Positions 36,001-60,000 of a DNA stretch of 64,000 bases are shown here, one piece after another. Position numbers: made by a program. Origin of the DNA: Zootoca vivipara (taxonomy: Eukaryota). How positions within the stretch are numbered: position 1 is the first letter of the stretch; each line of letters opens with the position of its first letter. The DNA is taken from NCBI RefSeq assembly GCF_963506605.1, contig NC_083276.1, positions 31,124,001-31,188,000 of the forward strand, written 5' to 3'.

Positions 36001-39000
36001 AGCTGGGCCGTGCAGCAAACATTCGAAAACACCATCAGTGAATTTTAAAAAGCAAATTGGCGAACACAGAATAAATTCAACTTTTTTAAAAAATAAATCC
36101 CTAGGTTTAAGTACTTAAATATAAAGCAAGAGTTAACCGACAATAAAGTTTCTGGTCTCCCAGCACGCCAAGGAGCCTGGCTTAAATACAGTTCAGAGGG
36201 AAGCCAGGTTAGGTGACATCTACAACCTGGCTCCCCTATCCTTTACTCCAGAGGAGGCTGACAGCAAGAGAAGAGAAATGTTGGGGAGGGCAATGATGGT
36301 CACTCTTCCCCAGCCTCCTATGAATACTAACTTGCTGATGCAGGTCTTATGGTCTGCCCTGAGCCCCCAAAAAATAAATAATTTTTTTTAAAAGAGCTTT
36401 TCCTTTATTCAAACAAAGGACGCACTTGATAGAACCAAGTGTATACAATTTATGCTTAAAATTCTCTACAGAAATCTTGTATTCAAGGCAACAGATGTCA
36501 AGCAGAAGGCAGCAGTGATAGCTTGCAGTCACTATTTTTCATGTCCAAGTGTGGAATTTAAATACTATGGGACATTGACCATGGATCTGAGATTTTATTC
36601 GTTTATTTGGGAGATACTGCTAATAAAACCTGCAAAATAAGCCCACGATTAATACAAGCTTATTATTATTACAGTGGTACCTTGGTTTAAGAACAGCTTA
36701 GTTTATGAACAACTTGGATTAAGAACGCTGCAAACCCGGAAGTAGGTGTTTTGGTTTGTGAACTTTGCCTTGGAATAAGAACATGTTTTGCTTCCTGTTG
36801 AGTGTGTTCCATTTGTAAATTGAGTCCCCTGCTGCTATGGAAAGCACACCTTGGTTAAAGAACGCTTTGGTTTAAGAACGGACTTCTGGAACGGATTAAG
36901 TTCGTAAACCAAGGTACCACTGTACAATGTATTACCCGCCCTTCCCTCTAAGGTCCCAGTGATTCCACAAATAGACTTTGAATTAGACTTTGAATTAATG
37001 GAAGAAACCCTCAATTCTTTGGAGAGGCAAAGAGAGGAACTGGGGGTAGAGTTACAGAGGATGGCTATATGGCTTATAATCTGTTCATTTGTCCATATGG
37101 GCAACAAAATGTTGCCCATATGTTGTATTGGGAAGGCTAAGTAACCAGGGAAATTGTGCATTCTAAATTCAAGATTCCTGGGTATTCTAGAAATGCATTA
37201 CTCACCTAGAGTTGTTTTGTAGTCCTCAATTCTAATTTTCTCTGCTGTTTAAAAGCAGCATTATTTCTCTCTACAATGTAGTCCAATGTACTCTTCTAGT
37301 AACCATGATCTAAAGAACGAACCTTCTTACATCTCTTAAAATGGAGATCATGAGTGTAAGGGTAGTTCCACATCACCCAGAAAATGGCTTGTTACATGTT
37401 GTTGTTTAGTCTGACCCCCATGGACCAGAGCACGTCAGGCACTCCTGTCTTGCACTGCCTCCCACAGTTTGGTCACTCATGTTGGTAGCTTTGAGAACAC
37501 TGTCCAACCAACTTGTCCTCTGTTGTCCCCTTCTCCTTGTGCCCTCCATCTTTCCCAACATCAGGGTCTTTTCCAGGGAGTCTTCTCTTCTCATGAGGTG
37601 GCCAAAGTATTGGAGCCTCAGCTTCAGGATCTGATCATTTTAGGCAACAGATCCTGAAGCTGAGGCTTGTTACATATGCTACAATTAAAAGAAAAGCTTG
37701 GGATATTTCTATCTCTCTCCTTCAAAATGTGGAATATTTTGTACCCTGAAATATTTCAGCTGTTGGAGATTGTTAAAATCTCAGCAGTGGCTGCTCCACA
37801 CAGCCCATAAAATTTCACTCCATTCAATCCAGTCCAGTCCAGGCACTTACCTCCACAAAGTATTCAGAAGCTCACCTCTTCAAGCTCCTCTCTTTTCAAT
37901 ACTCTACAATGAATTTCTGTGTTTTACAGGGGCCCTGCTGTCTCAAAAGCTATATACAGTACACACCATTTGTGTTAAATTAAATCACCTCACATGGATT
38001 TGTTTATGTAAGACATAAGTTTTGTAAAGTTTTTTTTTATTCAAGTCTACTTTAGAAACTTGTATACCATTGCTACACATTTTATTTTTTAAAAAAAGTT
38101 TATAAAAATACAGATATATATACACACACATTAGTGTTCTTCATGCCTGTTCATTTGTGGAAAGCCTCTACCTTCCAGTAGACTCCCATCTTTAGAAAAA
38201 AGGGATGTTAAGCTATGCACAGCAAGATATTCTTACCTAGAGTTCACATTAAAAACACAAAATCAAGTATCATCTCTACTGTAGTCCTAGAACATGATCA
38301 AAAGATATAATATTGTGGCTTTTTCTACTCATTGCTATAGACGCTAAACAGTATAGAGCACTTCATTAATATAGCAAGAGCCTATTTTGTGTTGCATAAT
38401 TCCTAGCTAGAGATGGAAACTCTTTAAACTTTTTGTCTTTTATTGGCATCTGTAACCTGGAGTGTAATTGGGGGAAGCAAAACCCGGTTTCAGTCATTTG
38501 TACAATTCTTATTTTGTGTATATATTTCATAGATTTACATTTTCAGAATTTAACCACAGAATTCATTATCCACAGTACAGCATTATAAGCTAGTTCTCTT
38601 CTTACTCCCCACCCCACCCCACCCCAGCCAAAAAAAAAAAAGGAAAAAGGAAACCTGGTTCACAAATCAGCAGGTCTTCGACATTTTAGGCAAAATTTGA
38701 TACATAATTGATGTATTGGAGTCATTACCATGAATGGGACACAAAATACAAGTTAATTACAGAATGCAAACCATGATCTCTTACATGACCTAAAAGAATT
38801 GTACTCTCAAATCTGGTCTTGCATAAAGTTTTGTGGTTTTTTTAAACCCAATATACCTATATATAGCAGTGTTCCTGGCATCCTAGAAAAGTGAAAAAAT
38901 ACTGATAGATGGTAGGATGCATGCAGGTGTAAAGAATAAGCTCATGTTGATAAATATTACTACCTCCAGTGACAAATATCTGAGTGGACCTGGATGGGAA

Positions 39001-57000: not shown

Positions 57001-60000
57001 CACAATCCTGTCTATGCAAAAGTAAGTCCTAATTCATGAGGCTTACTTCCAGGCAAACAGAGCCTTGGTATATCTTGGCGATTGCTGGTAAAAGCTGAAA
57101 ACTTTACCACCTTCAATCCCTCCCAGCTCACCAAGGCTTGATGCCCTTCCACAATGCCCCATTTATCTCTGTAACTAAATGAAACCTGGGCTGAGTAACT
57201 GAAGAGGGACCATGCGCAGCTTTCCACATCCCCTGCAATGTCTCATCAGAGATCTGGGTGACCATCCTCAATACTGGGGGGTCGGGTCCCCCTGACACTC
57301 CAGAGATGTTTTGTGGCAGGCTGAACAAGGCTGAGGACCTCCTTGCGGAAGCCCATGTTTGTATAAAATAACATGCAATTTTATATTTGCTTCTGTGTAC
57401 TGAATGCACAAATTGTTTTATCATATTTGAACGGAATTCTACAATAGCCAAGGATGATATTCAAAACTCCAGAGGGCTAATGTAGAGTGTGGGTCATCAA
57501 TATCCAGACATTCAGGGAGAAGTAAAATCTGCCCATTCTGCTACTTCAATCTCCCCCCACCTCACTTCTTTACACTTTCTTCTATCATCAAGCTGGACAG
57601 ACTAAACACAACATTCCATCTGTTCCAGCATGGTATTCATTGCAGCCTAGTTTGATTCAACCATTCTCACTAAAACCATTTCAGAATTCCACCCTCAAAA
57701 TAACAAGTTGAACCAAATCCAAACACAACCAGGTGTGAACACACACTAGTATAACCTGAGCCACTCTGTCGCAAATCACCAAGCTTCTTCGGCACACCTG
57801 CTTCAAGGGATCGTCTCTATGATGAACAACTAACTGATAACAGAATCCTCTAATCAAATGCTTCTTCCCGTAGGGCAAGGAGGGGAAACCAGATATCCTC
57901 CAGCTTCATGTTCCAGTAGCAGCAGCCAGCAAAGGCAACAGCCAGGAACAAGACCAGTCGTAGTCCTACCGGTACTACTTCCAGGGTCCAGAAGTTCCCC
58001 ATATTCGATATACAAGTCCCTCTGATGACCTAAGCGAAAAATTGCCCTCGTCACCAGTCCAGCACCAACAGCTTCTGCATTATGGGCTTTAAACAGACGG
58101 CTACATCAGGCAGCCGCCTTGCATTGAACGCCTATGCTAAAGGCTGCCATTCAGGGCACACGGCCTCCCCTCAATCCAATCCAGGGGGACTTGCTTTCGA
58201 ATAAACCTGAACAAAACCTCGTGCTCACACACGTATCGCGTTTGCTGTGACTTGAATCACACTGAGTTCAACGGGGTTTAACTCCATCCCGAGGGGGCTC
58301 GCACGACGGGTTCCGGATTAACCAAGATCTCGAAGGGCGACCCTTGCCATGCTTACTCGGCAGTAAGTCCCACTGGACTTAGCGGCGTTTACCCCTGGGA
58401 AACACGTGCTTCGGGGCTGCCGCTCTGACCGAGGGAAGCGGCTCCGGGAGTCCGCGCCCGGCGTTGCTTCAAGGCTGCAGCACCCGAAGCAGGCGGCGCA
58501 GGCAGGCCCGAAGCCCTCCTCGCCAATTATGGACGGCTCGGGGCCGCTTCGACACCCGCCTTCCCCGCACCCCTCCAGCCGGTGCTCGGCTTACCATCCG
58601 CGGCGGCCCGGCAGGCGAGGAGCGGCCCCTGGCCGGCGTCAAGGCAACCCGCGCGCAACCCCCAGCTGCCCCCACCGCACAGAGCCAAACTTCGCGACTC
58701 GTCGCCTCCTGATGACATCACCTGTCAGTCACCGCCATAAGAGTTCTTCCTCCCGCCCCTCCGTTCGGAGTGGATGCCGGGAAGGAGGAGACGCACCTGC
58801 TCCTGGAGTTAGCCCCGCCCACCCCTTTCCCACAGGAGGCTCTTAAGAGGCCGGCTGCGCCTTGTGAGGACTCAGATCTCTGTGTTCAGAGAGGCTTACA
58901 GGCTCCCTGGGGGCAATGTTAGAAACTGAGATATGAAAACGGAGCTCAATGGCACCTTAAACCTAAGTTATGGGCGCAACAACGAAATGTCTAGGCGTGC
59001 TTTTTTATAACAAGAATACAAAGCTGAAAATGAATGTACTGCAGTGTTATGTACTGAGCTGAATCCTAGAACAATAGGATTCAGAATCAGCGGGAGCTAC
59101 CCAATCCAACTCCAGGTGGAAGTGAATCCGCAACCTGATTGGCCTGCTGGAGCAGCCAATCAGGCGGCTGGCAGAAGTGAATCTGCTACCTGATTGGCCT
59201 GTAGGAGCAGCCAATCAGGCTGCAGGCAAAAGTCAATCCACAATATAATTGGCCCACAGGTGTAGCCCTGAAGTAGCCAATCACGCAAGGCCCATTGTGT
59301 AAATAATGTATATAAGCAGATGGTTTTGGGAAAAGAGCCATTCGTCTTCTCTTCTCCTCCTTGATGACTATGAGCTGAATAAAGAGCATGAAATTCACTC
59401 TTGACTCCGAGTATATTTCACTGGCGACGAAGGTGGGATCCTGCTGAGCTGACCGCCACCACGCACTGCACCGCAGCACCGCCACCTGCTGCACCGCTGC
59501 ATCGCACCGTGCATCCAGGCTTCAGCTCCAGGACCCAAGGAACCCAGAATGGCAACCGACAGCAGCTTCTCGCCATTCAAACCAGCATCAGGAGACTGGG
59601 AAGGGTACGCCGCCCGTTTCAACTTCCTCCTGCAAGCGAAAGAAGTCACCAACGATGCCATGAAGAGGGCGACATTCTTCAGCGTCTGTGGAGAGGAGAC
59701 GTTTGAAATCGCCCGGGCTCTCCTTGCACCTAGAGATGTCGCTACCGTCTCTTACAAAACAATAATGGAACGGCTGAAGGAGCACTTCTCACCACAGCCC
59801 TCGGTGGTAGCTTGCCGAAATGCCTTCTACGCAAAACGGCAAGCCCCGGGGGAAACCATAACTGGGTTTGTGACCTCCCTCCGCCAAGCCGCCCGGTTAT
59901 GCAACTTCTCAGAATTGGAGAACATGCTTCGTGACCGCCTCGTCGGTGGCCTGAGGGACGAGATGTTGCAACGACGCCTCTACGCCAAAAAAGACCTCAC

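What the first reader, a model, noticed from the sequence alone, without database searches (positions are those of the whole stretch)
36030..58870. PROSER1 occupies the position held by SEC23A in the human GEMIN2 block
Seen: an intact 13-exon PROSER1 ends about 2.2 kb upstream of the GEMIN2 start, in tandem, with no sequence gap. Known (recalled): in human the order is SEC23A-GEMIN2-TRAPPC6B-PNN-MIA2 on chr14, while PROSER1 is on chr13 head-to-head with NHLRC3. No NHLRC3 or SEC23A coding exon was recognised in the window. All introns are retained, so this is not a retrocopy. Inference: DNA-level gene relocation or a rearrangement breakpoint in the squamate lineage, possibly with capture of a new CpG promoter and leader exon.
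Basis: partly seen in the sequence, partly recalled or inferred. Interest (0 to 1): 0.65.

Follow-up and report, generated by a model that had tools for sequence, protein, structure and literature searches.

The report
PROSER1 relocated next to lizard GEMIN2
In this piece of a common-lizard chromosome the gene PROSER1 sits, whole and with all its introns, directly in front of GEMIN2, a neighbourhood it lacks in the birds, crocodilian, turtle and mammals compared, so it looks like an old gene move shared by lizards and snakes rather than an error or a new kind of element.

Summary
The window is Zootoca vivipara (lacertid). On the minus strand lie PNN, then GEMIN2 (ATG 35811) and, upstream of it in tandem, an intact PROSER1. 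TRAPPC6B lies between PNN and GEMIN2 on the plus strand. PROSER1 has 13 coding exons (55717-39555), 12 of 12 introns are GT-AG, and 915 of 916 residues equal the RefSeq protein. There is no N, and no Sec23 or NHL domain in 822 scanned reading-frame fragments. The distance from the PROSER1 stop to the GEMIN2 ATG is 3.7 kb; it is about 2.2 kb only if the poly(A) signal at 38041 is the one used.

PROSER1 and GEMIN2 lie on a sequence record of identical length in 8 of 8 other squamates (gecko, skink, cordylid, iguanians, snakes). In Phrynosoma their locus tags are three apart. They lie on different records in 7 of 7 non-squamates. Published tables place chicken PROSER1 193 bp from NHLRC3 on chr1, and list turkey SEC23A-GEMIN2-TRAPPC6B-PNN-MIA2 on chr5. 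The arrangement is therefore most likely a derived, DNA-level relocation that predates crown squamates.

Not resolved: whether PROSER1 moved alone or in a block, and whether its CpG-rich leader region (58200-58870) is new. The 5 kb upstream is a recent, uninterrupted Ty3/gypsy-type LTR element that hides the true neighbour. Interest is modest.

The parts
55673..55717 (-). PROSER1 coding exon 1 (ATG at 55717). The exon probably starts at the acceptor at 55780, so its 5' part would be UTR.
54783..54848 (-). PROSER1 coding exon 2
52994..53062 (-). PROSER1 coding exon 3
51923..52017 (-). PROSER1 coding exon 4 (DUF4476)
51498..51591 (-). PROSER1 coding exon 5 (DUF4476)
50466..50576 (-). PROSER1 coding exon 6
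49417..49500 (-). PROSER1 coding exon 7
48338..48416 (-). PROSER1 coding exon 8
46951..47046 (-). PROSER1 coding exon 9
46433..46477 (-). PROSER1 coding exon 10 (45 nt)
41755..43441 (-). PROSER1 coding exon 11, the 1687-nt Ser/Pro-rich exon; one residue (302) differs from the RefSeq protein
40771..40918 (-). PROSER1 coding exon 12
39555..39686 (-). PROSER1 coding exon 13, including the TAA stop at 39557-39555
58200..58870 (-). CpG-rich segment (GC 0.54-0.70, CpG obs/exp 0.9-1.0). It is the candidate PROSER1 promoter and non-coding leader exon; the exact exon bounds are unknown.
   Evidence: inference
35812..39554 (-). PROSER1 3' UTR plus the spacer to GEMIN2. Minus-strand AATAAA signals lie at 38444, 38086, 38041, 36607, 36599 and 36409. 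The GEMIN2 CpG island lies at about 35600-36000.
28267..35811 (-). GEMIN2, 10 coding exons, ATG 35811, TGA 28269-28267
17331..24594 (+). TRAPPC6B (probable ATG at 17331; TRAPP-domain exons in fragments 21052-21198, 21890-22027 and 24376-24594; the 3' end was not mapped)
6716..16096 (-). PNN (Pinin_SDK_N and Pinin_SDK_memA exon fragments from 15953-16096 down to 8668-8844, plus the large C-terminal exon 6716-8014)
59044..64000 (+). Ty3/gypsy-type LTR retrotransposon; it runs off the window end
59044..59415 (+). 5' LTR, at least 372 nt (its 3' bound is not visible by self-comparison); it holds a 55-nt tandem repeat of 2.5 copies at 59119-59254
59549..63619 (+). Single gag-pol ORF of the element, 1356 codons, with no stop or frameshift inside it. 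Domain order is protease, reverse transcriptase, RNase H, integrase.
63629..64000 (+). 3' LTR, cut by the window end; 372 of 372 visible positions are identical to the 5' LTR

Best explanation
The window is the GEMIN2-TRAPPC6B-PNN block of the common lizard (Zootoca vivipara). The PROSER1 here is the annotated lizard PROSER1 gene, not a retrocopy. It lies in tandem directly upstream of GEMIN2, where birds and mammals have SEC23A. The most likely history is a DNA-level move that kept all introns. PROSER1, alone or with a few neighbours, left its old neighbourhood (head-to-head with NHLRC3, in the chicken-chr1q-type linkage group). It arrived in the chicken-chr5-type group, just upstream of the GEMIN2 promoter, before geckos split from other squamates. 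The gene stayed functional: its frame is open, its domain is conserved, and protein identity falls off with phylogenetic distance. It is probably transcribed from a CpG-rich region about 3 kb upstream of its ATG exon, through a non-coding leader exon. Shown here: the gene models, the tandem adjacency in this lizard, same-record linkage across squamates, and different records in outgroups. Inferred: adjacency in the other squamates (except Phrynosoma, where the tags are three apart), the direction and timing of the move, and the leader exon and promoter.
For: Identity: P0001 (Zootoca PROSER1) matches the large exon at 100%. 915 of 916 residues are identical over 13 exons, and 12 of 12 introns are GT-AG. 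DUF4476 is found on two exons. GEMIN2 is 264 aa in 10 exons, starting at 35811. TRAPPC6B (PDB 2cfh, E 6.4e-24, against 1.1e-13 for TRAPPC6A) and PNN lie in the order and orientation of the bird list. Linkage: the longest_contig value is identical for PROSER1 and GEMIN2 in 8 of 8 squamates that have both values: Pogona, Sceloporus, Phrynosoma, Hemicordylus, Tiliqua, Sphaerodactylus, Thamnophis and Notechis. In Notechis the record is only 21.6 Mb. Phrynosoma locus tags are JD844_021053 (PROSER1) and JD844_021056 (GEMIN2). The values differ in 7 of 7 non-squamates: Alligator mississippiensis, Carettochelys, Melanerpes, Petaurus, Rhinolophus, Ctenodactylus and Daubentonia. Outgroup order: chicken NHLRC3 is at chr1:172554893-172565969 and PROSER1 at chr1:172566162-172586926 (PMC9361851, table passage). 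The turkey chr5 list reads SSTR1, SEC23A, GEMIN2, TRAPPC6B, PNN, MIA2 (PMC8470100, table passage). Cytogenetic maps put GGA5+GGA7 and GGA1q on different squamate chromosomes (PMC4524605, passages). That PROSER1 at 172.5 Mb lies on the q arm of chicken chr1 is recalled.
Against: Adjacency is seen directly only in this window. For other squamates the evidence is same-record linkage, plus one pair of locus tags and one 21.6-Mb scaffold. 'longest_contig' describes a 90% cluster, so a value could come from another member; most rows had one contig. Karyotypes are conserved among squamates, so the 8 species are not 8 independent tests. Tuatara, amphibians and fish have no usable pair of values, so an older origin is not excluded by my own data. 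The upstream neighbour is hidden by the LTR element and the window end. Single-copy status was not tested on a genome. No reads or Hi-C were available to check the join. The listing of cluster members could not be made to run.
Confidence: 0.72

Rival explanations
1. Stepwise or lineage-specific adjacency. PROSER1 and GEMIN2 came onto one chromosome early in squamates, but the tight tandem adjacency seen here arose later, for example only in Lacertoidea plus Iguania.
For: For gecko, skink, cordylid and snakes only same-record linkage is shown, not distance. In Phrynosoma two locus tags lie between the genes, whereas this window has no gene between them.
Against: Notechis has both genes on a 21.6-Mb scaffold. 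Phrynosoma tags are only three apart. One event explains all the data more simply than two.
Confidence: 0.13
2. Ancestral adjacency. PROSER1-GEMIN2 is the old amniote or tetrapod order, and mammals, birds, crocodilians and turtles lost it.
For: Tuatara, amphibians and fish could not be tested here; one search listed no amphibian or fish PROSER1, and the tuatara rows carry no contig length.
Against: Chicken PROSER1 lies 193 bp from NHLRC3 on chr1. The turkey list has SEC23A next to GEMIN2. A mammal-focused paper places Proser1 and Nhlrc3 in one block it describes as of conserved synteny in tetrapods (PMC11146322, passages). 7 of 7 non-squamates have the two genes on different records. This reading needs at least two independent, identical re-arrangements.
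Confidence: 0.05
3. Extra copy. This is a DNA-level duplicate of PROSER1, and a parental copy still sits beside NHLRC3 in squamates.
For: No genome-wide search for a second locus was possible with these tools.
Against: Among the 120 rows listed, each squamate species shows one PROSER1 gene (isoforms aside), and in the 8 testable species it lies on the GEMIN2 record. The Zootoca RefSeq protein is this locus (915 of 916 residues).
Confidence: 0.05
4. Assembly misjoin between the PROSER1 3' end and GEMIN2 in this assembly.
For: The spacer holds repeat-like sequence (a LINE-tail-like reading frame at 37409-37639; a 16-nt tandem repeat at 36681-36726), and repeats are where misjoins tend to occur.
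Against: There is no N in the window. Independent assemblies of 8 other squamates keep the two genes on one record, and Phrynosoma has them three tags apart.
Confidence: 0.03

Closest known systems
SEC23A-GEMIN2-TRAPPC6B-PNN-MIA2 block of birds and mammals
   Same: GEMIN2, TRAPPC6B and PNN lie in the same order and relative orientation: GEMIN2 and PNN on one strand, TRAPPC6B on the other and head-to-head with PNN. The turkey chr5 list gives the same order.
   Different: The position upstream of GEMIN2 is held by PROSER1 in tandem, not by SEC23A head-to-head. No Sec23 domain was found in 0 of 822 fragments. MIA2 was not found in 1-6700.
NHLRC3-PROSER1 head-to-head pair (chicken chr1; human chr13 by recall)
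   Same: It is the same gene. The exon-by-exon match is to proteins named PROSER1, and the gene span is similar: chicken 20.8 kb, against about 20.8 kb here if the gene runs from about 58850 to about 38020.
   Different: No NHL-repeat exon is in the window. The 5 kb upstream of the CpG-rich region is an LTR element, so the partner gene, if any, is out of view.
Positional gene relocation by DNA-mediated transposition, or by duplication followed by loss of the parent copy (described in Drosophila and mammals; recalled, no paper read here)
   Same: An intron-containing single-copy gene is found in a new neighbourhood on a different ancestral linkage group.
   Different: The size of the moved segment, the breakpoints and the mechanism are not known here. 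No flanking duplication or footprint was identified.
Ty3/gypsy (Metaviridae) LTR retrotransposons
   Same: Two direct LTRs. One ORF with protease, RT, RNase H and integrase in that order. The best solved relative is the Ty3 Gag-Pol polyprotein, 7q5b, E 2.2e-88.
   Different: It is a reptile element, not yeast Ty3. Its family within the group was not determined. The 3' end and the target-site duplication lie outside the window.

Membership tests
PROSER1 orthologue | DUF4476 domain near the N-terminus | tested here: met
   PF14771 is found on fragments 51922-52017 (E 3.1e-05) and 51441-51632 (E 1.8e-05), both above the curated cut-off.
PROSER1 orthologue | Best relatives over the long Ser/Pro-rich exon are proteins named PROSER1, with identity falling with phylogenetic distance | tested here: met
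   Zootoca 100%, other lacertids 96-97%, other squamates 70-89%, turtles, birds and crocodilian 66-70%, mammals 53-61%. Tuatara at 64% sits below its expected place. 3 of the 120 listed rows are unnamed.
PROSER1 orthologue | Open, spliceable gene | tested here: met
   13 coding exons, 12 of 12 GT-AG introns, 2751 nt, ATG and TAA in place.
PROSER1 orthologue | Single copy in the genome | tested here: inconclusive
   Only one Zootoca PROSER1 row appears. No genome-wide search was possible.
Processed retrocopy | No introns, poly(A) remnant, flanking duplication | tested here: not met
   12 introns are retained.
Amniote GEMIN2 block | GEMIN2, TRAPPC6B and PNN in conserved order and orientation | tested here: met
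   comparator list.
Amniote GEMIN2 block | SEC23A head-to-head with GEMIN2 | tested here: not met
   PROSER1 lies there. 0 of 822 fragments match Sec23/Sec24 families.
NHLRC3-PROSER1 bidirectional pair | NHLRC3 on the opposite strand just upstream of PROSER1 | tested here: inconclusive
   No NHL family hit was found in the window. Only about 5.1 kb lies upstream of the CpG-rich region, and the LTR element fills it from 59044 on.
Ty3/gypsy LTR retrotransposon | Two direct long terminal repeats | tested here: met
   59044-59415 against 63629-64000: 372 of 372 positions identical.
Ty3/gypsy LTR retrotransposon | Protease-RT-RNase H-integrase order | tested here: met
   Pfam: gag-asp_proteas 302-391, RVT_1 500-647, RT_RNaseH_2 710-809, Integrase_H2C2 951-1005, rve 1021-1111. 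Ty3 Gag-Pol is the best PDB hit.
Ty3/gypsy LTR retrotransposon | No envelope gene (retrotransposon rather than endogenous retrovirus) | tested here: met
   The ORF ends at 63619 and the 3' LTR starts at 63629, which leaves no room for another gene.
Ty3/gypsy LTR retrotransposon | Target-site duplication | not testable with these tools
   The 3' end lies beyond base 64000.

The most novel reading that the evidence does not exclude
PROSER1 moved alone, as a segment of about 21-23 kb carrying all its introns. It landed inside the shared SEC23A/GEMIN2 bidirectional promoter in the stem lineage of squamates and split that promoter. The CpG-rich region at 58200-58870 would then be the SEC23A half of the old promoter, now driving PROSER1 through a newly recruited leader exon. 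SEC23A would lie just beyond the LTR element on the plus strand. This would be a clean, dated vertebrate case of single-gene DNA transposition with promoter capture.
Probability: 0.15. Interest if true: 0.5.

Novelty: new member of a known kind. Interest (0 to 1): 0.3.

Why it matters
If the reading holds, PROSER1-GEMIN2 adjacency is a simple rare-genomic-change marker for Squamata; whether it extends to Lepidosauria depends on tuatara. It is also a natural case for asking how a housekeeping-type gene keeps its expression after being cut from its bidirectional partner and placed in front of another promoter. PROSER1 is tied to a human developmental disorder (Salah et al. 2022, seen only as a citation in PMC11146322). 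By my recall it is also tied to TET2/OGT-UTX enhancer regulation, so regulatory changes after the move could be of interest. In practice, orthology pipelines that lean on synteny should expect this break. It is not a new kind of system.

Tried and rejected
One tblastn coordinate pair also held a stop. I switched to stop-free fragments.
- The listing of cluster members, wanted for accession numbers and contigs, could not be run.
- The search of protein representatives with P0001 returned 131 unnamed proteins. Without names or contigs they could not serve the amphibian and fish question, so I did not use them.
- I tried to locate the leader exon with the N-terminal extensions of gecko and varanid RefSeq models. 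Only the 5' UTR part of the ATG exon (55782-55705) was found, and nothing in the CpG-rich region.
- Rfam gave 0 matches.
- Paper searches: PROSER1+GEMIN2 gave 1 paper, irrelevant by title. PROSER1+lizard gave 2, irrelevant by title. One five-term search was badly posed and uninformative: 12,214 papers, and none of the 20 listed holds PROSER1. So I found no printed account of this relocation in that library.
- Rejected readings: retrocopy (introns are present), and the high G+C of 59400-64000 as a host CpG island (it is the LTR element).

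
Full report
WHAT THE WINDOW IS. The window has no N. Its largest minus-strand reading frame (41709-43496) matches 'proline and serine-rich protein 1 [Zootoca vivipara] XP_034964783.1' (P0001, 916 aa) at 100%. Other lacertids follow at 96-97%, other squamates at 70-89%, turtles, birds and a crocodilian at 66-70%, and mammals at 53-61%. That call found 217 proteins with E <= 0.001 among 8000 candidates; 120 are listed and 3 of those are unnamed. So the sequence is common-lizard DNA, and the gene is already annotated as PROSER1 in RefSeq.

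THE PROSER1 MODEL.
- tblastn of P0001 on the window gave 21 rows. 13 are colinear minus-strand matches, and 8 are weak rows caused by Ser/Pro-rich composition.
- I placed the splice sites exon by exon. There are 13 coding exons from the ATG at 55717 to the TAA at 39557-39555, and they sum to 2751 nt.
- 12 of 12 introns are GT..AG. 915 of 916 residues are identical to P0001; only residue 302 differs.
- Pfam finds DUF4476 on two of the exons.
- The spliced models were tested exon by exon only. The joined coding sequence or protein was never assembled, printed or searched; that joined step was left out. Where a full-length query was needed, I used the named RefSeq proteins that the search tool returned (P0001, P0122).
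- With 12 introns kept, a retrocopy is excluded.

GEMIN2 AND THE SPACER.
- Pfam SIP1 hits and a single-exon search identify GEMIN2. The Zootoca protein (P0122, 264 aa) maps to 10 minus-strand exons from the ATG at 35811 to the TGA at 28269-28267. 9 of 9 introns are GT..AG.
- The two genes are therefore in tandem. The PROSER1 stop and the GEMIN2 ATG are 3743 nt apart.
- Minus-strand AATAAA signals lie at 38444, 38086, 38041, 36607, 36599 and 36409.
Without transcripts the true 3' end is open, and the spacer could be as short as about 0.6 kb.
- The GEMIN2 CpG island is at about 35600-36000.

THE REST OF THE BLOCK, AND WHAT IS ABSENT.
- PNN lies on the minus strand, with Pinin domains on 8 fragments from 15953-16096 down to 8668-8844 plus the large exon 6716-8014.
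- TRAPPC6B lies on the plus strand, with a probable ATG at 17331 and TRAPP domains on 3 fragments. One exon matches PDB TRAPPC6B at 6.4e-24, against 1.1e-13 for TRAPPC6A.
- Order and orientation equal the bird list SEC23A, GEMIN2, TRAPPC6B, PNN, MIA2, except for the first gene.
- In all, 822 stop-free fragments were scanned against Pfam: 113 + 149 + 144 + 416. The thresholds were 0.05, 0.01, 0.01 and 0.001. None matched a Sec23/Sec24 or NHL family.
- Not scanned: fragments shorter than 30 aa (shorter than 40 aa outside the gene strands), and the antisense strand of the LTR element.

THE 5' END.
- The ATG exon is preceded by a long polypyrimidine tract and a CAG acceptor at 55781/55780, and by an in-frame stop.
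- N-terminally extended RefSeq models of a varanid and two geckos align to this 5' UTR part, 55782-55705. In one gecko model the extension continues into an upstream exon. So a leader exon is likely, and it is shared among squamates.
- The only CpG-rich host segment upstream is 58200-58870, with GC 0.54-0.70 and CpG observed/expected about 0.9-1.0.
- The high G+C from 59400 to 64000 seen is not host promoter. It belongs to an LTR element.

THE VIRUS-LIKE STRETCH (DESCRIPTION ONLY).
- From 59044 to the window end lies a Ty3/gypsy-type LTR retrotransposon in plus orientation.
- The LTRs, 59044-59415 and 63629-64000, are identical at 372 of 372 visible positions. The 3' LTR is cut by the window end. 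Each LTR holds a 55-nt tandem repeat of 2.5 copies.
- One ORF (59549-63619, 1356 codons) carries protease, reverse transcriptase, RNase H and integrase domains in that order. It matches the solved Ty3 Gag-Pol polyprotein best, 7q5b at 2.2e-88.
- Count of breaks in this ORF: no stops and no frameshifts.
- There is no room for an envelope gene between the ORF and the 3' LTR.
- Identical LTRs point to a recent insertion, unrelated in time to the old relocation.
- Its practical effect here is that it hides what lies upstream of PROSER1.

COMPARATIVE EVIDENCE.
- No vertebrate genome collection was available. I used the 'longest_contig' column of the protein searches as a chromosome label.
- PROSER1 and GEMIN2 carry the same value in 8 of 8 squamates that have both:
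  - Pogona 358276425
  - Sceloporus 382616321
  - Phrynosoma 396190715
  - Hemicordylus 459129262
  - Tiliqua 314321002
  - Sphaerodactylus 183231754
  - Thamnophis 186725308
  - Notechis 21564604
- In Phrynosoma the locus tags are JD844_021053 and JD844_021056.
- The values differ in 7 of 7 non-squamates that have both:
  - Alligator mississippiensis, 486595084 against 307635815
  - Carettochelys, 383128740 against 127301102
  - Melanerpes
  - Petaurus
  - Rhinolophus
  - Ctenodactylus
  - Daubentonia
- Rows dropped before these counts: every species with a value for only one gene. These include all other lacertids, Anolis, Varanus, Rhineura, further geckos and snakes, chicken, and tuatara (which has no value at all).
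- Caveats: the column describes a 90% cluster. Squamate karyotypes are conserved, so the eight species are not independent. Sharing a record is not adjacency.

OUTGROUP ORDER FROM PAPERS (PASSAGES SEEN, NOT WHOLE TEXTS).
- A chicken study tabulates NHLRC3 at chr1:172554893-172565969 and PROSER1 at chr1:172566162-172586926 (PMC9361851).
- A turkey study lists SSTR1, SEC23A, GEMIN2, TRAPPC6B, PNN, MIA2 within one chr5 interval, with no PROSER1 in the paper (PMC8470100).
- A bat study places Proser1 and Nhlrc3 in one block it describes as of conserved synteny in tetrapods (PMC11146322).
- A gecko mapping study reports GGA5 with GGA7 on one squamate chromosome and GGA1q on another, with linkage groups highly conserved (PMC4524605).
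- Together these make the squamate state derived and interchromosomal. A small segment left the GGA1q-type group for the GGA5-type group. That the chicken position is on the q arm is my recall.

INTERPRETATION.
- Best reading (0.72): a real, DNA-level relocation of PROSER1 to the position just upstream of GEMIN2, which arose before the gecko split.
- Rivals: adjacency arose later than linkage (0.13); ancestral adjacency lost elsewhere (0.05); an extra copy with the parent retained (0.05); a misjoin (0.03).
A leader exon is likely, but it may equally have travelled with the gene. The gene span here, about 58850 to about 38020, equals the 20.8 kb tabulated for chicken.

WHAT STAYED UNCHECKED.
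- Gene order beyond 64000.
- PROSER1 neighbours in any other species at base resolution.
- Tuatara, amphibians and fish.
- Transcript ends.
- Read support for the join.
- Accession-level look-ups (could not be made).
- The collections metagenome contigs and viral contigs and the supplementary files of papers were closed. Supplements of squamate genome papers may hold synteny tables that bear on this.
- No contig was taken for human, and unnamed protein hits were not used.

VERDICT. The finding is a new instance of a known kind of event, not described in the searched literature, though the gene order is implicit in public annotation. Interest 0.3.

Noticed in passing
window 59044-64000: A Ty3/gypsy-type LTR retrotransposon with LTRs identical over the 372 visible positions and an uninterrupted 1356-codon gag-pol ORF. 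It was inserted about 175 bp upstream of the CpG-rich region taken as the PROSER1 promoter. Its high G+C could be mistaken for a host CpG island.
   Followed up: yes
window 43322-43320 (PROSER1 residue 302): One amino-acid difference between the window and the RefSeq Zootoca protein (Thr in P0001, Ile here). It is probably a polymorphism or a difference between assembly versions.
   Followed up: partly
window 37409-37639 (-), 23770-24129 (+), 10526-10807 (-): Reading frames that look, by recall, like C-terminal tails of LINE ORF2 proteins common in squamates (BovB/RTE-like and CR1-like). One lies in the PROSER1-GEMIN2 spacer. None had a Pfam hit.
   Followed up: no
window 55705-55782 (-): The 5' UTR part of the PROSER1 ATG exon is conserved with varanid and gecko models, which read it as coding N-terminal extensions. 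In Zootoca the frame is shifted and closed by a stop, so those extensions may be prediction artefacts or lineage-specific.
   Followed up: partly
window 15600-17700: A CpG- and GC-rich region (GC 0.55 in 16001-18000) lies between the first PNN exon (15953-16096, minus) and the probable TRAPPC6B ATG (17331, plus). This is a head-to-head promoter arrangement.
   Followed up: partly
window 55006-55047, 19513-19544, 7010-7096: Simple repeats: (GT)21 in the intron after the PROSER1 ATG exon, (TA)16 in a TRAPPC6B intron, and a 33-nt repeat of 2.6 copies inside the Ser-rich PNN exon.
   Followed up: no
window 1-6700: No Pfam domain was found on either strand downstream of PNN. MIA2, expected next by the bird list, is not visible in the window.
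   Followed up: partly
whole window: No Rfam family reaches its gathering score on either strand.
   Followed up: yes
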